Source of the DNA: Idiomarina loihiensis L2TR
GTDB lineage: Bacteria; Pseudomonadota; Gammaproteobacteria; Enterobacterales; Alteromonadaceae
Assembly (NCBI RefSeq): GCF_000008465.1
Contig: NC_006512.1
Location: 2,580,001-2,612,000 of the forward strand
Length of the DNA: 32,000 nucleotides
Reading direction: 5' to 3'
The notes beneath the pieces were generated by a model, which was not told the DNA's origin, did no database searches, and worked only from the letters and a program-made list of their open reading frames with translations. Position numbers and translations under genes: made by a program. Numbering within the stretch: position 1 is the first letter of the stretch; every line of letters starts with the position of its first letter. Shown piece by piece: positions 17,953 through 21,931 of this stretch.

Positions 17953-18597
17953 ATGAAAGCGTATCAAAAAGAGTTTATTGAGTTTGCCATAGAGCGTGGC
18001 GTATTAAAGTTTGGTGAGTTTACCTTAAAGTCCGGCCGCACCAGCCCGTACTTTTTTAATGCCGGGCTGTTTAATAAAGGTTCTGACTTAGCACGCTTAG
18101 GCCGCTTTTATGCCGCCGCGCTGGTCGACTCCGGTATCGATTTTGATGTGCTTTTTGGCCCGGCTTACAAAGGCATTCCTATTGCCACTGCCACAGCGGT
18201 CGCCTTATACGACCACCATCAGCAAGACACCCCATATTGCTTTAACCGTAAAGAAAAGAAAGACCACGGCGAAGGCGGTAACCTGGTGGGCTCAGCGCTG
18301 GAAGGCAAAGTGATGCTGGTGGATGACGTGATCACCGCAGGCACAGCTATTCGTGAAGCCATGGAGATTGTCGAAACGAACGGCGCCGAATTGTCCGGTG
18401 TTCTGATTGCTCTGGATCGTCAGGAAAAAGGCAAAGGCGAACTATCGGCGATTCAGGAAGTTGAGCGTGATTTTAATGCCCAGGTGGTTAGCATTGTAAG
18501 CTTGAATGATGTCATCAACTTTTTGAAAGATGACGACACTTTTAACGAATATCTTCCCAAAGTTGAAGCGTATCGCGCCGAGTTCGGCGTCGCCTGA
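17953..18597 (+). CDS. pyrE: Orotate phosphoribosyltransferase
   Basis: Starting at the ATG at 17953 gives 214 aa (E. coli PyrE is 213 aa): [12 protein letters not shown].., with a PRPP-binding loop [13 protein letters not shown]. It follows rph, as in the enterobacterial rph-pyrE operon. Confidence 0.95.
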
Positions 18598-18661
18598 TAC
18601 GAATGTGCGTAGCCTGACGTTTACGTCAGGTCCAATATCTCACCTGACATGAATGTCATAT

Positions 18662-18674
18662 ATGGTCCCCTCCC
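18662..18674. repeat. IS inverted repeat (transposase-distal, 3' end)
   Basis: ATGGTCCCCTCCC is the exact reverse complement of 20022-20034. Confidence 0.85.
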
Positions 18675-18920
18675 GTTTTGCAACGGCAACTCGTGGTAAA
18701 TGTCGGGGCGCTCGCATATATACGGCCTGTTTATGGTGCGCGCTTTGCGCACCTGGCCTGGATGAACTCCGCACGACAACTGGCTTATCAGGCTAACGTA
18801 CTTTATGTACGGACGTTCAACAGTCTCAGTTGTCGTCGGTTTACCCTATTTTACCATCCTGTTGACGTTTGCAACTCCCGGAAGGAATGAACCTTCGCTG
18901 TGCTCTTTTACTGAATGCTG
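18675..18920 (-). ncRNA. Candidate IS1111-type bridge (guide) RNA region in the 3' non-coding end of the IS
   Basis: A 10-bp long-range stem (18773-18782 / 18827-18836) encloses a two-sided internal loop and a distal 5-bp hairpin (18797-18801 / 18807-18811). A further 7-bp hairpin lies at 18735-18753. The loop segment 18784-18795 is 11/12 identical to the chromosomal flank 20035-20046. Strand and exact ends are not determined. Confidence 0.3.
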
Positions 18921-19952
18921 TTAAGCAGCAGTCATCCGGTAATCTTCTTTATTCTTTAACATCGCCCAGATTATCCGGGCGTGCTTGTTAGCCAGTGCCA
19001 CCGCTGCAACGTTGTTGCCTCTGCGTTTAGCGACATCCTGTGCCCAGAGGCTCAGCCTGTCGTGGCGCTGTTGTGCCACCCGCAGTGCCGAGCGGGCGCC
19101 ATGCACCAGCAGTGTCCTGAGTTTGGTGTTCCCTTTTTTGGTAATACCGCCTAAACGGTCTTTACCGCCACTGCTGTTTTGCCGTGGTACCAGTCCCAGG
19201 TATTCCGACAGGTTGCGGCCGCGTTTAAATTCACTCACATCACCTATCAGTGCCAGCAGCGAGGTCGCTGTTATCGGTCCGATACCCGGCAGGGTCATCA
19301 GCCGCTGACTGTCTTCATTCCTTTCGGCCTGTGTCGCTAAGTGCTTATCCAGCGCTTTAACTTCTTCATCCACCGCTCGCAGCATCTGATAGAGCCGGTT
19401 GATGAGGTCCCGTGACTGAAGCGTCAGCGCATTGCTGTCGTCTTCCAGTACCTCCGGTACTCTCTGTAATATCGTACCGACTCGCTTCGGTAAAAGAATG
19501 CCGTATTCGGCCAGTTGCCCCCGCAACCTATTCGAGAACTGCGTTCTCGTCTGCACGAAGCCTTCCCGCTGATTGACCATCAATGCTAAGTCCTGCTGCT
19601 CAATGCTTTTCAGCCTGACCGTCTGACGGTTGGGTCGTGATGCCGCCTCGGCTATCGCCCGGGCGTCATTCGCATCGTTCTTCTCACCCTGCAGGTACGC
19701 TTTGACGAAACGCGGTGGCAACGCCACCGTTTTATAACCCAGCTTTTCACATTCGCGGCGCCAGTAATGACTCATGCCGCAGGACTCAACCGCTACTTCA
19801 CAGTCATCCGTACGGCTCAGCGTCGCCAGCTTCGCTAACACTTTATTGCTGCGCAGTTTTTTATTAAAAACTTCCTGCTCATTTTCATCCAGCGCCAAAA
19901 CCTGAATAAAATCCTTTGCCAAATCCAGGGCAATTCTGTTTACAATAGCCAT
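18921..19952 (-). CDS. IS110 family transposase (RuvC-like DEDD domain + C-terminal Tnp domain)
   Basis: 343 aa. The N-terminus reads IALDLAKDF.., followed by ..VESCG.. and ..KNDANDARAIAEA (DEDD pattern). The C-terminus reads LMTLPGIGPITATSLLALIGDVSEFKRGRNLSEYLGLVPRQNSSGGK..GITKKGN..LRTLLV (IS116/IS110/IS902 signature with the SSGG serine). A GGAGAGG SD precedes the ATG. Confidence 0.93.
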   Translation of the reverse strand: MAIVNRIALDLAKDFIQVLALDENEQEVFNKKLRSNKVLAKLATLSRTDDCEVAVESCGMSHYWRRECEKLGYKTVALPPRFVKAYLQGEKNDANDARAIAEAASRPNRQTVRLKSIEQQDLALMVNQREGFVQTRTQFSNRLRGQLAEYGILLPKRVGTILQRVPEVLEDDSNALTLQSRDLINRLYQMLRAVDEEVKALDKHLATQAERNEDSQRLMTLPGIGPITATSLLALIGDVSEFKRGRNLSEYLGLVPRQNSSGGKDRLGGITKKGNTKLRTLLVHGARSALRVAQQRHDRLSLWAQDVAKRRGNNVAAVALANKHARIIWAMLKNKEDYRMTAA

Positions 19953-20021
19953 TGGTCCTCTCCACTCCGTTCTATAGAATCTTCGAAACTCTATATTGGC
20001 ACATTGCGATGCCGCTTAGGA

Positions 20022-20034
20022 GGGAGGGGACCAT
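20022..20034. repeat. IS inverted repeat (5' end)
   Basis: GGGAGGGGACCAT is the exact reverse complement of 18662-18674. Confidence 0.85.
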
Positions 20035-20050
20035 CTCATCAGGCTACCAG

Positions 20051-20079
20051 GAAAACGGCAATAAGTGATTGCCGTTTTC
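20051..20079. terminator. Palindromic hairpin, probable bidirectional terminator (likely the original pyrE terminator displaced by the IS)
   Basis: Perfect 12-bp stem GAAAACGGCAAT / ATTGCCGTTTTC with a 5-nt loop. A U-run (TTTTC) forms the 3' part of the stem on both strands. Confidence 0.55.
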
Positions 20080-20254
20080 ATTCACGCCAGGTGGAATATC
20101 GGGGAATAAGAGTGCGCCTGACGGTTGCGAGGGGTCTTGTGGAGGTGTGCAGCGCCGTGGATGGCGCTGCTCAAGTCCTACAAGGATGTATTCACGGGCG
20201 TCCTCCAAAAGACTCCTCGTAACCTCAGCACTCGCTTTCCCAGTTTCCCAGCCG

Positions 20255-21931
20255 CTACAGCTTTTCCTGTGGCTGCCAGGCAATACCAATGCTGCCGTTT
20301 ACAATCTGGCATTCGCCACCTGAAGACTGCACGCGACTGGATTCCCCGCGCTGTGCAATTAGGCGGAAGTCTTTATTTAGCAAGCTAACCTGCTTACGCT
20401 CGCCACACAAAATGCGCATAGAATCGATTAAGCCACGATCACTGAGAAAGTTTGTTGTTGGCTCTTCCTGAACAACATCATCGCCTTTCGCAAACTCGGC
20501 GGTTTGTAATCCATACGGAGAGATAACCCCCGATGCTCCGGCGACCAGATAATGAAACGTAGCAGCTACGGCATTATCGGTTCCTTGTGCATCTTCCACC
20601 ATAAACGCACCACGCTCACCAATAATGTTGAAAGCGCCGCTTTCTAAATTCACTTCCATTGCGGTGTTTTCGTCAATACCAATAGATAATGGTGTGGAAC
20701 TCGCAGCCGCCAGACGCATTAAGCGCCCCTGCCGCCCGCGCTCAGAAAACTCAGTATCCAATGTGGCATAGTGAAACAAACTTAAGCCGCCCAGCGGATG
20801 GTAAGTCAGGCTATCAGGTCCAACATTCGGCGGACAGGTGGTGTCTAAATTGCAACCAAATGGAGGAGGATCGGAAGCAATCGCTCCCTCTTTTATGGCC
20901 TGAGCGGTTGTGCCATTAGAAATCATAGGCTTAGAAGTCATAACCGCAGTGCCGGCACCCGTTCCGCCAATAACCACTTCCTTTTGTTGCACAGCTGCAA
21001 TAATCGTCTTCAGCACATCGCCGGGTTCATTATTCGCCTTAATAAAGGTTGAACGAGTCAGGTTCTGATCACCATCATTAAAAAACAGTCCATCGGCATC
21101 GGCCAGCATCTCTGCGGCCGCATCAGAATCTTTGCAAAAAGCGACTTGCTCCTGATACCGGTCTTTATGCACCCGGTCACGTTCATAAGCACCTAATTGC
21201 TTTTGCTGAATTTTTGCCAGTTCATCGCAACGACCTTCCCGCTGAGCTTTTACTACAGCAGAATCCAGTGGCAGCCAATGCACTTCTGCTCCCAGCTGTT
21301 CAAATACACTATTGTAAAAATCTATCTTATCGTACGGATTACGTGATGCAGAGGTCAGGAAATACACCTTTGGCTTCCGTTCATCTCCGGCAACTGACTG
21401 CGCCATTTCAACAAAGCGCTGAAAAATTGCTTTTGACTCACCTTTGAGGTTTTCATCCAGATTAACCACTTCACGTGCGGAATCCGGAACCGGTAGCTCA
21501 ATTAAGTCAATAATCCGGTTCCACTCAGCATCTGACAACGAGTTATAAAGCTGTTGTGTCGCCCGCCGGGTAAACTCACGCAGAAAAACGCGCTCAGGAA
21601 CAATGTCTTCTTTTAAACGCTCGTGAATTAATTCCAGCGCATCAGCAACTTTTTTGCGAGTTTCTTCACGGTAACTAGGCCAAACCGACTCTGCCGTTGC
21701 TCTCGAACGAAATTTTTTCGACAGGTTTAAATACCTGTCGGTGCGCATCGTTTCCTTATCAATCCAGTCAACGTCATCACAGTTATCCGACGCGAAACTG
21801 GAACAGGCCGTCAGACCGCCACCAGCCAACAATAAATGTCGGTATGTATCGTCATCGGCAGCATTTGACGGCGCCGCAAAAGCTGATGACAATGCCGCCA
21901 AAGAGAGCAAGGAAAACAACGACTTAACCAT
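20255..21931 (-). CDS. Secreted cyanophycinase-like (peptidase S51 family) protein with substituted catalytic residues
   Basis: 558 aa with a signal peptide (..SSAFA/AP). S51-type blocks are present: LLLAGGG, KVYFLTSASRNP, FFNDGDQ, IGGTGAGTAVM, FSERGRQGRLMRL and GIDENT. A ~140-aa insertion follows the first block, and there is a ~100-aa C-terminal extension with several Cys pairs. Confidence 0.65.
   Translation of the reverse strand: MVKSLFSLLSLAALSSAFAAPSNAADDDTYRHLLLAGGGLTACSSFASDNCDDVDWIDKETMRTDRYLNLSKKFRSRATAESVWPSYREETRKKVADALELIHERLKEDIVPERVFLREFTRRATQQLYNSLSDAEWNRIIDLIELPVPDSAREVVNLDENLKGESKAIFQRFVEMAQSVAGDERKPKVYFLTSASRNPYDKIDFYNSVFEQLGAEVHWLPLDSAVVKAQREGRCDELAKIQQKQLGAYERDRVHKDRYQEQVAFCKDSDAAAEMLADADGLFFNDGDQNLTRSTFIKANNEPGDVLKTIIAAVQQKEVVIGGTGAGTAVMTSKPMISNGTTAQAIKEGAIASDPPPFGCNLDTTCPPNVGPDSLTYHPLGGLSLFHYATLDTEFSERGRQGRLMRLAAASSTPLSIGIDENTAMEVNLESGAFNIIGERGAFMVEDAQGTDNAVAATFHYLVAGASGVISPYGLQTAEFAKGDDVVQEEPTTNFLSDRGLIDSMRILCGERKQVSLLNKDFRLIAQRGESSRVQSSGGECQIVNGSIGIAWQPQEKL

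What the first reader, a model, noticed from the sequence alone, without database searches (positions are those of the whole stretch)
18675..18920. Long structured 3' non-coding end of the IS110-family element has internal-loop sequences matching both chromosomal flanks: candidate IS1111-type bridge RNA
Seen in sequence:
- The transposase (18921-19952, minus) has only 82 bp between its ATG and the nearer inverted repeat, but 246 non-coding bp lie between its stop and the other repeat.
- In that 3' region a perfect 10-bp long-range stem, ACGACAACTG (18773-18782) / CAGTTGTCGT (18827-18836), encloses a two-sided internal loop and a distal hairpin, CGTAC-tttat-GTACG (18797-18811).
- One loop arm, cttatcaggcta (18784-18795), is 11/12 identical to ctcatcaggcta (20035-20046). 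That is the chromosomal sequence directly abutting the opposite end of the element, about 1.25 kb away.
- The other loop arm, gacgttca (18812-18819), is a 7/8 reverse-complement match to tgaatgtc (18650-18657), 4 nt outside the near end. This match is weaker.
- The two matches are to opposite DNA strands.
- Weaker still, the hexamers accatc (18853-18858) and ctcccg (18875-18880) recur at the element ends (20030-20035 and 18670-18675) and could be donor guides.

Established knowledge: IS110-family recombinases use an element-encoded bispecific bridge RNA whose internal loops base-pair with target and donor DNA. In the IS1111 subgroup the long non-coding end lies 3' of the recombinase.

Inference: this region encodes such an RNA, and the loop at 18783-18826 is its target-binding loop.
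Basis: partly seen in the sequence, partly recalled or inferred. Interest (0 to 1): 0.72.

Follow-up and report, generated by a model that had tools for sequence, protein, structure and literature searches.

The report
Guide RNA of an Idiomarina IS1111 element
The non-coding tail of this jumping gene very probably encodes the already-known kind of guide ("seek"/"bridge") RNA that tells its transposase which short repeated chromosomal sequence to insert into; this is a clear but ordinary new example of a mechanism published in 2024.

Summary
The element is a complete IS1111-type insertion sequence (window 18659-20041, minus strand, 1383 bp). It has a 343-aa DEDD transposase, 13-bp subterminal inverted repeats, terminal extensions of 7 bp and 3 bp, and a long non-coding region 3' of the gene. 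It sits in a REP-like palindrome, GTAGCC|TGACATTCATGTCAGG.

The stem-loop at 18765-18841 (minus) has the published IS1111 seekRNA/bridge-RNA target-loop architecture. Its 5' arm is antisense to the target right of the cut. Its 3' arm is sense to the target left of the cut. The two matches overlap at a TG core.

The decisive evidence is natural covariation. About 58 related loci carry nine different left guides, and each matches its own flank. Right guides track their flanks too. Seven of 13 basal-stem pairs show compensatory changes.

Two corrections apply:
- The proposed donor hexamers are not supported. Better candidates are AUAUAUG (18715-18721), which covaries with the core, and UUCAUC (18761-18766).

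No transcript evidence is available. Verdict: a new member of a known kind, of modest interest.

The parts
18659..20041 (-). Complete IS1111-type insertion sequence, 1383 bp by the IS1111 convention, which assigns the left core copy to the IS.
   Evidence: Boundaries come from 20 junctions in related loci and from uninterrupted REP copies. The 7-bp/3-bp extension rule is stated in PMC11187229.
18921..19952 (-). Transposase, 343 aa. It has DEDD residues D10, E56, D93 and D96 and the motif GLVPRQNSSG at residue 253.
   Evidence: Pfam PF01548 + PF02371. NCBIfam NF033542 'IS110 family RNA-guided transposase', 327 bits. IS621 structure 8wt6, E = 2.6e-9. Motif positions.
20022..20034 (-). Left subterminal inverted repeat, ATGGTCCCCTCCC.
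18662..18674 (+). Right subterminal inverted repeat. It reads GGGAGGGGACCAT in transposase orientation.
20035..20041 (-). 7-bp left terminal extension, TGATGAG. Its first two bases, TG, are the IS-borne core copy.
   Evidence: It is invariant in all copies. The variant CGATGAG in L015/L018/L024 changes together with the guide cores.
18659..18661 (-). 3-bp right terminal extension, ATA.
20042..20047 (-). Left half of the target, GTAGCC, from a REP-like element.
   Evidence: Identical at all 11 left junctions.
18641..18658 (-). Right half of the target: the TG core plus ACATTCATGTCAGGTG.
18765..18841 (-). Target-binding module, equivalent to the short seekRNA. It consists of a basal stem, a two-sided internal loop and a distal hairpin.
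   Evidence: Covariance-model hit of 95 bits on the minus strand only. The same fold appears in 14 sequences.
18827..18839 (-). Basal stem, 5' strand: CCGACGACAACUG.
   Evidence: 7 of 13 pairs carry compensatory changes.
18769..18782 (-). Basal stem, 3' strand: CAGUUGUCGU-G-CGG, with a one-base bulge.
18812..18820 (-). Right-target guide, UUGAACGUC. It is antisense to the top strand G-ACGTTCAA.
   Evidence: It matches its own flank at 7/9. An identical IS in L056 matches its flank at 8/9, with 8 consecutive pairs. It covaries with the flanks.
18797..18811 (-). Distal hairpin, CGUAC-AUAAA-GUACG.
   Evidence: The stem is conserved, the loop varies, and an A-U pair becomes G-C in the methylotroph group.
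18789..18795 (-). Left-target guide plus core, UAGCC-UG, in the same sense as the top strand. It is followed by the conserved AUAAG at 18784-18788.
   Evidence: Nine guide variants match their own flanks.
18761..18766 (-). Candidate right-donor guide, UUCAUC. It is antisense to GATGAG of the left end.
   Evidence: The methylotroph group has CCCAUU opposite the left end AATGGG. An alternative intramolecular helix with GAUGG (18854-18858) is not excluded.
18724..18758 (-). Second conserved hairpin: GGCC-A-GGUGCGC...GCGCACC-AUAAACA-GGCC.
   Evidence: The structure is kept while the sequence changes: GGUGAC/GUCACC, GGUGU/ACACC, GAGC/GCUC.
18715..18721 (-). Candidate left-donor guide plus core, AUAUA-UG, in the same sense as the right end ATATA plus the core.
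   Evidence: It becomes AUAUACG exactly in the IS variants whose left end and left-target guide carry a CG core.
18678..18683 (-). TTGCAA, a -35-like hexamer of a promoter that would form at the circle junction. It is followed by a 17-nt spacer and then TA|TGAT across the junction.
   Evidence: Read directly from the sequence. TTGC and the A-run after it are conserved in all lineages. Junction promoters are known for ISEc11 (PMC11187229). No complete sigma-70-like site is found in the integrated copy.
18608..18631 (+). Neighbouring uninterrupted REP copy, GTAGCCTGACGTTTACGTCAGG. It shows what the empty target looks like.

Best explanation
The window carries an intact IS1111-family insertion sequence of Idiomarina. 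The window is identical to NCBI CP005964.1.

Proposed mechanism:
- The roughly 260 nt between the transposase stop codon and the right end are transcribed in the transposase sense. The likely source is a promoter assembled at the junction of the excised circle.
- The transcript folds into a guide RNA that binds the DEDD transposase.
- The module at 18765-18841 presents two guide segments in one internal loop.
- UUGAACGUC pairs with the top strand of the target immediately right of the insertion point.
- UAGCC-UG pairs with the bottom strand left of it. The two overlap at the core (TG).
- Together they direct orientation-specific insertion between GTAGCC and TGACGTT of a REP-like palindrome.
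- Downstream segments AUAUAUG and, less certainly, UUCAUC are proposed to read the joined IS ends (...CCATATA|TGATGAG...). That would make the RNA bispecific, a 'bridge'.

Status of each step:
- Shown here: anatomy, site specificity, guide/target covariation and stem covariation.
- Inferred from published relatives: transcription, processing, protein binding and catalysis.
For: Family features:
- Pfam and NCBIfam family hits.
- 13-bp subterminal repeats.
- 7-bp and 3-bp extensions, and a long non-coding region downstream of tnp, as defined in PMC11187229.

Site specificity:
- 11 of 11 left junctions read GTAGCCTG + ATGAG.
- 9 of 9 right junctions read ATATA + TGAYRTT..RTCAGG (one CGATGC variant), all in one orientation.

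Left-guide covariation:
- Seven variants were tabulated and permuted: UAGCCUG, UAGCUUG, UAACUUG, UAGGUCG, UAAGGCG, UAGGGCG, UAGCCCG.
- They match their own left flanks at 163 of 175 positions. Shuffled pairings average 113, and 0 of 20000 permutations reach the observed value.
- Two more variants come from held-out loci: CAAAGCA in L054 and UAGGGCG in a new lineage. The covariance model found both, and both matched their own flanks.

Right-guide covariation:
- Reverse complements match their own right flanks at 172 of 217 positions against a shuffled mean of 88 (0 of 20000).
- Within Idiomarina alone the figure is 73 of 90 against 61.7 (12 of 20000).
- An IS with an identical transposase and guide sits at a perfectly matching site in L056.

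Structure:
- 86% of cells pair, against 22-40% when partners are slid.
- 7 of 13 basal-stem pairs have changes on both sides.
- G-U pairs fit only the transposase-sense strand.
- The fold z-score is -4.3.

Agreement with published elements:
- The top-strand match lies 5' of the bottom-strand match, and the two overlap at the cut, as in ISEc11, ISPa11 and ISKpn4.

Donor side:
- AUAUAUG becomes AUAUACG only in IS variants whose left end is CGATGAG and whose left guide ends in CG.
- UUCAUC/GATGAG corresponds to CCCAUU/AATGGG in the methylotroph group.
Against: - There is no direct evidence that an RNA is made, processed or bound by the transposase.
- No sigma-70-like promoter was found in the integrated copy.
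- Rfam 15 has no family that matches.
- The window's own right guide matches its own flank at only 7 of 9 positions.
- The donor-side assignment rests on one covarying core position. That position changes in three loci but is probably a single evolutionary event. The assignment also rests on a two-lineage comparison of the other segment.
- In the methylotroph group AUAUACG mismatches the IS-borne CA core.
- RNAalifold offers an intramolecular partner (GAUGG) for the UUCAUC segment.
- No empty site for this exact locus was recovered.
Confidence: 0.9

Rival explanations
1. The RNA guides target choice only. It is a 'seekRNA' in the narrow sense. The IS ends are recognised by the transposase through the 13-bp subterminal repeats, and the AUAUAUG and UUCAUC segments are scaffold rather than donor guides.
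For: - IS1111 elements have long conserved subterminal repeats that could serve as protein sites. PMC11187229 stresses that end recognition may differ from IS110.
- AUAUACG in the methylotroph group does not match the CA with which the left end starts.
- UUCAUC can pair with GAUGG inside the RNA.
- The right-end sequence ATATA never varies, so it cannot be tested by covariation.
Against: - There is a three-way change T to C in L015/L018/L024: left end TG to CG, left-guide core UG to CG, and AUAUAUG to AUAUACG.
- RNA UUCAUC to CCCAUU accompanies left end GATGAG to AATGGG.
Confidence: 0.25
2. The region acts as DNA rather than RNA. It would be a target-like decoy or a protein-binding site within the IS, and it resembles the flanks because it derives from a captured REP copy.
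For: The target is a palindromic REP, so REP-like strings could be picked up by an IS. No transcript data exist.
Against: - The two arms match opposite strands and are separated by an unrelated hairpin. They are not arranged like a REP copy.
- The arms change coherently with quite different targets, including a target unlike the other REP sequences in L054.
- Stem pairs covary, including G-U pairs that make sense only as RNA on one strand.
- Homologous regions of ISEc11, ISPa11 and ISKpn4 were shown to act as RNA in trans.
Confidence: 0.03
3. The resemblance is chance. The structure is merely a 3' UTR or terminator of the transposase gene.
For: The 7/8 match alone is common by chance (1423 of 20000 shuffles).
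Against: - The 11/12 match is rare (21 of 20000 shuffles).
- Guide and flank covary across nine variants, with 0 of 20000 permutations reaching the observed match.
- There is no terminator-like T-run in the non-coding region.
Confidence: 0.01

Closest known systems
ISPa11 (IS1111 family, Pseudomonas aeruginosa), with its experimentally shown seekRNA (Siddiquee et al. 2024, PMC11187229)
   Same: - It targets a REP sequence at a fixed position and in a fixed orientation.
- It has subterminal repeats and a non-coding region downstream of tnp.
- Its short RNA of 96 nt (this module is about 77 nt) has the top-strand match 5' of the bottom-strand match.
- Its insertion point lies just 5' of a two-base overlap (GTAGGG*CG there, GTAGCC*TG here).
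   Different: The host genus, the REP family and the guide sequences differ. RNA production and protein binding were shown for ISPa11 but not for this element. Transposase similarity to ISPa11 was not measured here.
ISEc11 / ISXne4 pair (IS1111 family), an example of natural retargeting
   Same: Close relatives keep the stem but differ in both loop arms and sit in different targets. The window IS and its 83%-identical Idiomarina relative (L015-L024) do exactly this.
   Different: The series here is richer. It includes single-base guide variants (UAGCUUG, UAACUUG, UAGGUCG) and fine tuning of the right guide to REP sub-variants within one genus.
IS621 bridge RNA (IS110 group; Durrant et al. 2024, PMC11208160; Hiraizumi et al. 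2024, PMC11208158)
   Same: - It has a DEDD/Ser recombinase. The C-terminal domain aligns to 8wt6 at E = 2.6e-9.
- Its internal loop has one guide per DNA strand, and a two-base core is shared by target and donor.
- It targets REP sequences.
- A promoter forms at the circle junction.
   Different: - In IS621 the RNA lies 5' of the gene in the left end.
- The order of the guides is reversed.
- The subterminal repeats are only 2-3 bp.
- The donor loop is a simple internal loop, whereas here the candidate donor segments lie around a multi-branch junction.

Membership tests
IS1111 family (subgroup of IS110) | DEDD transposase of 330-350 aa with PF01548 + PF02371 and a GL-P----S/TG motif | tested here: met
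   343 aa. Both Pfam domains hit. NF033542 scores 327 bits. D10, E56, D93, D96 and GLVPRQNSSG are present.
IS1111 family (subgroup of IS110) | Subterminal inverted repeats of 11-13 bp with terminal extensions of 7 bp (left) and 3 bp (right) | tested here: met
   13-bp repeats. The extensions TGATGAG and ATA were deduced from uninterrupted REP copies and from loci where the core copies differ. The rule is quoted.
IS1111 family (subgroup of IS110) | Long non-coding region downstream of the transposase gene | tested here: met
   262 nt lie downstream of the stop codon to the IS end. 89 nt lie upstream of the start codon.
IS1111 family (subgroup of IS110) | Insertion at one specific sequence, in one orientation, without a true target duplication | tested here: met
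   20 junctions in Idiomarina are all in the same REP position and orientation. The left core copy follows the IS and the right copy follows the target.
seekRNA / bridge RNA of IS1111 elements | Stem-loop whose internal loop carries a segment complementary to the target top strand, placed 5' of a segment complementary to the bottom strand, with the two overlapping at the insertion point | tested here: met
   UUGAACGUC and UAGCCUG overlap at the core. The order is as published.
seekRNA / bridge RNA of IS1111 elements | Guide segments covary with the target among relatives (programmability) | tested here: met
   Nine left-guide variants and several right-guide variants match their own flanks. 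0 of 20000 permutations reach the observed match.
seekRNA / bridge RNA of IS1111 elements | Conserved secondary structure supported by compensatory changes | tested here: met
   7 of 13 basal-stem pairs have changes on both sides. 82-86% of cells pair, against 22-40% when partners are slid. Held-out lineages were found by the covariance model at 56-72 bits.
seekRNA / bridge RNA of IS1111 elements | Second set of guides that pair with the joined IS ends (donor-binding loop, bispecificity) | tested here: inconclusive
   AUAUAUG/AUAUACG covaries with the IS core. UUCAUC/CCCAUU tracks the left end. However, there is little variation, the methylotroph group has a mismatch, and an alternative intramolecular helix exists.
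seekRNA / bridge RNA of IS1111 elements | The RNA is transcribed, processed to about 80-170 nt, and co-purifies with and is required by the transposase | not testable with these tools
   No expression data are available. Only a potential junction promoter, TTGCAA-17-TA|TGAT, can be read from the sequence.
Rfam curated RNA family | Match to any Rfam 15 covariance model | tested here: not met
   There is no hit in 18675-18920, even at E <= 10.

The most novel reading that the evidence does not exclude
The Idiomarina series offers natural genetic evidence that IS1111 RNAs read the donor junction as well as the target.

- A single T-to-C change of the core appears simultaneously in the IS left end, the left-target guide and the AUAUAYG segment.
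- In loci where donor and target cores differ, the left junction keeps the IS core and the right junction keeps the target core.

If this reading is correct, it fixes the crossover point and shows true bispecific 'bridge' behaviour in the IS1111 branch. In that branch donor recognition is still attributed partly to the long subterminal repeats. It would also show fine-scale natural retuning of the right guide to REP sub-variants within one genus.
Probability: 0.45. Interest if true: 0.45.

Novelty: new member of a known kind. Interest (0 to 1): 0.3.

Why it matters
The finding adds a cleanly delimited and probably active IS1111 element to the known set. It comes with a graded natural series of retargeted guides, covering nine left-guide variants across four sampled lineage groups.

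Such a series is useful for three purposes:
- Defining which RNA positions are programmable.
- Gauging how many mismatches are tolerated.
- Placing the strand exchange relative to the core.

These questions are relevant to engineering bridge or seek recombinases. The finding does not reveal a new mechanism.

Tried and rejected
- Rfam 15 scan of 18300-20400 at E <= 10 gave only sub-threshold, unrelated hits.
- Megablast of the element against PLSDB plasmids found no match.
- The sigma-70 promoter scan of the integrated copy found none.
- I looked for an empty site at this locus through contigs that encode the identical PyrE. All five either carry the IS or end in it.
Neither tracks changes in the ends.
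- I considered reading AUAAG, 3' of the left guide, as a handshake guide for the IS left end ATGAG. I set this aside because GAU(A/U)AG is conserved even where the left end reads ATGGG.
- L013, a 50%-identical partial hit in an Acetobacteraceae MAG, has a different high-GC tail and no covariance-model hit. It was not pursued.
- Literature and supplement searches found no description of an Idiomarina IS of this family. ISfinder itself could not be queried.

Full report
**Observation**

- The transposase ORF is at 18921-19952 on the minus strand and is 343 aa long.
- It carries PF01548 (DEDD_Tnp_IS110) and PF02371.
- It scores 327 bits on NCBIfam NF033542, 'IS110 family RNA-guided transposase'.
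- It has the residues D10, E56, D93 and D96 and the motif GLVPRQNSSG.
- Its C-terminal domain aligns to the solved IS621 recombinase at E = 2.6e-9.

The inverted repeats are 13 bp, ATGGTCCCCTCCC, at 18662-18674 and 20022-20034. The 11-mer core of the repeat occurs only at these two places in the window. The minus-strand RNA of the non-coding end folds far better than shuffled versions (-88.3 against -69.6 +/- 4.3 kcal/mol, z = -4.3).

From mononucleotide shuffles of the non-coding region, the 11/12 match is rare (21 of 20000). The 7/8 match alone is not (1423 of 20000 anywhere, 52 of 20000 within one arm).

**Origin and other copies**

The window is identical to NCBI assembly GCA_000401175.1, record CP005964.1. 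From memory this is Idiomarina loihiensis GSL 199; the tools did not print the name.

A genome-collection scan with the transposase found 13 loci (L001-L012 and L014) of the same IS, about 90% identical in DNA. They come from Idiomarina abyssalis, I. zobellii and I. piscisalsi.

In transposase orientation, the junctions of those loci plus the window read as follows:
- All 11 left junctions read ...GTAGCCTG-ATGAG-ATGGTCCCC.
- All 9 right junctions read GGGGACCAT-ATA-TGAYRTT...RTCAGGTG, with one CGATGC variant.

Uninterrupted copies of the same palindrome, GTAGCCTGACGTTTACGTCAGG, lie next to several insertions. One is at window 18608-18631. The IS is therefore inserted, always in one orientation, between GTAGCC and TGACGTT of a REP-like element.

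**Limits of the element**

IS1111 elements have subterminal repeats of 11-13 bp. They carry a 7-bp extension on the left and a 3-bp extension on the right, and an apparent flanking duplication is assigned to the left end of the IS (PMC11187229).

Here the 13-bp repeats are followed outward by TGATGAG (20035-20041) and ATA (18659-18661). This gives an element of 1383 bp at 18659-20041.

Loci in which the two 'core' copies differ support this assignment. The left copy follows the IS and the right copy follows the target:
- L004 has TG on the left and CG on the right.
- L037 has CA and TG.
- All the methylotroph-group loci except L037 and L054 have CA and CG.

**The target-binding module**

On the minus strand the RNA reads as follows:
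- Basal stem, 5' strand: CCGACGACAACUG.
- 5' arm: AGACUGUUGAACGUC.
- Distal hairpin: CGUAC-AUAAA-GUACG.
- 3' arm: UUAGCCUGAUAAGC.
- Basal stem, 3' strand: CAGUUGUCGU-G-CGG.

UUGAACGUC (18812-18820) is antisense to the top strand, G-ACGTTCAA, right of the cut. UAGCC-UG (18789-18795) has the sense of the top strand left of the cut plus the core, so it would pair with the bottom strand. The two matches overlap at the core.

This is the arrangement found experimentally for ISEc11, ISPa11 and ISKpn4. In those elements the top-strand match lies 5' of the bottom-strand match, the two overlap at the insertion point, and the short RNA is 82-96 nt.

**Covariation of guides with targets**

(i) Among the Idiomarina copies the 3' arm and the left flank are both invariant. 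The 5' arm varies (UUGAACGUC, UUAAACGUC, GUGAAUGUC, GAUAACGUC, GAUAGCGUC, GAUAGCCUC, AGGAACGUC), and the right flanks vary with it (GACGTTCA, GACGTTTA, GACATTCA, GACGTTAT, GATGCTAT, GACGTTCC). Own-flank matches total 73 of 90 against 61.7 +/- 3.6 for shuffled pairings, and 12 of 20000 permutations reach the observed value.

(ii) An IS whose transposase is 83% identical (P0003, loci L015-L024) sits in a different REP, GTAGCTTGCGCCTTTGGCGCAAG. Its 3' arm reads UAGCUUG, UAACUUG or UAGGUCG in the loci whose left flank reads GTAGCTTG, GTAACTTG or GTAGGTCG. Two sites tolerate one mismatch. Its 5' arm, CAAGGCGC, is the reverse complement of GCGCCTTG.

(iii) Elements about 48% identical, from methylotroph genomes and metagenomes, carry UAAGGCG, UAGGGCG or UAGCCCG next to GTAAGGC, GTAGGGC or GTAGCCC. 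Their ACGAAUCCG segment lies opposite CGGATTCG.

(iv) Lineages not used to build the model were detected by a covariance model of the module at 56-72 bits. They obey the rule. This includes L054, whose target is unlike the others: CAAAAGCA|GCCGTTGG, with guides CAAAGCA and AACGGCUG.

Overall, left guides match their own flanks at 163 of 175 positions (shuffled mean 113). Right guides match at 172 of 217 (shuffled mean 88). In both cases 0 of 20000 permutations reach the observed value.

An IS with the same transposase and the same right guide as the window sits at TGACGTTCACGTCAGG, a perfect 8-nt match.

**Structure**

All 14 representative sequences fold individually into the same module.

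On the MAFFT alignment, 86% of cells pair, against 22-40% when partners are slid by 1-3 columns. Seven of the 13 basal-stem pairs show changes on both sides, and no shuffle reaches the observed covariation score. The alignment fitted to the covariance model gives the same picture.

G-U pairs occur in several sequences. These would be A-C on the other strand, which points to the transposase-sense strand as the RNA. The model finds one hit in the window, at 18765-18841 on the minus strand, at 95 bits. Rfam 15 has no matching family.

**Donor side**

They lie in constant segments that RNAalifold places in helices. Two other segments are better candidates.

AUAUAUG (18715-18721) has the sense of the right end plus core (CC-ATATA-TG). 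It reads AUAUACG exactly in L015, L018 and L024, where the IS left end is CGATGAG and the left guide ends in CG. This is a three-way change.

UUCAUC (18761-18766) is antisense to GATGAG of the left end. In the methylotroph group the homologous RNA reads CCCAUU and the left end reads AATGGG.

Between the two candidates lies a hairpin (18724-18758). Its structure is kept while its sequence changes. The layout therefore repeats that of the target module: antisense guide, hairpin, sense guide. It also agrees with the remark by Durrant et al. that IS1111 donor-binding nucleotides often lie in a multi-loop.

I rate this part as plausible but not established, for three reasons:
- The variation is small.
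- AUAUACG mismatches the CA core of the methylotroph left ends.
- UUCAUC could instead pair with GAUGG within the RNA.

**Expression**

No sigma-70-like promoter is found in the integrated copy.

Joining the ends would create TTGCAA, a 17-nt spacer, and then TA|TGAT. The methylotroph group would give TTGCAA-17-TA|CAAT. This is the kind of junction promoter described for ISEc11. It would drive the transposase gene and the downstream RNA only from the excised circle.

This reading comes from the sequence alone and is not tested.

**Comparison with what is known, and novelty**

The mechanism was published in 2024 (PMC11187229, PMC11208160, PMC11208158). Durrant et al. predicted a bridge RNA in the right end of 93% of IS1111 elements. 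NCBI's family model already names this protein class 'RNA-guided transposase'.

I found no paper or supplement that mentions an Idiomarina element. ISfinder could not be consulted.

The finding is therefore a new member of a known kind. What goes slightly beyond the routine is twofold:
- The quality of the natural retargeting series.
- The hint it gives about donor reading and the crossover position in the IS1111 branch.

**Verdict**

Confidence is about 0.9 that this is a functional IS1111 guide-RNA locus. Confidence is about 0.5 that the RNA is also bispecific in the way proposed here. Interest is 0.3.

Noticed in passing
window 18608-18631 (+): An uninterrupted REP copy, GTAGCCTGACGTTTACGTCAGG, lies inverted about 10 bp from the occupied REP. 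The two form a pair of inverted REPs downstream of pyrE. It matches the left guide perfectly and the right guide at 7/9, yet it is empty. In I. abyssalis (L011) the IS instead occupies the first REP after pyrE.
   Followed up: partly
L004, L037 and the methylotroph-group loci L027-L045 and L051-L055 (junctions): Where the two core copies differ, the left junction carries the IS-type core and the right junction carries the target-type core (TG/CG, CA/TG, CA/CG). This suggests the exchange point lies 5' of the core on the target, with no heteroduplex signature.
   Followed up: partly
L027-L045, L051-L053, L055 versus L054: Methylotroph-group RNAs keep CG at the core position of both the left guide and the AUAUACG segment, although their left end begins CA. 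L054 is the only element whose left-guide core is CA, and its target core is CA as well.
   Followed up: no
L055, right junction and 5' arm (about 1950-1960 and after the right end): The right guide CUAUUGCG pairs with its flank CG[T]CAATAG only if one DNA base is bulged out. This is either a tolerated bulge or a later mutation.
   Followed up: no
L020 and L022, left junctions: An IS with the left guide UAACUUG is inserted at GTAGCTTG. One guide-target mismatch is therefore tolerated in nature.
   Followed up: no
window 20052-20078 and 20142-20226: A hairpin, AAAACGGCAAT/ATTGCCGTTTT, lies between the upstream 558-aa ORF (20255-21931, minus strand, no Pfam hit on record) and the IS. It resembles a bidirectional terminator. 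A weak, sub-threshold Rfam hit to Ysr224 (E = 0.25) lies at 20142-20226.
   Followed up: no
window 18862-18885 versus 18662-18690 (minus-strand RNA): The 5' part of the non-coding region (CCUUCCGGGAGUUGCAAACG) can pair with the very end of the element (CGUUGCAAAACGGGAGGGG), which includes the right repeat. One compensatory A-U to G-C change occurs in the adjoining long-range helix. This suggests the long RNA form may run to the IS end.
   Followed up: partly
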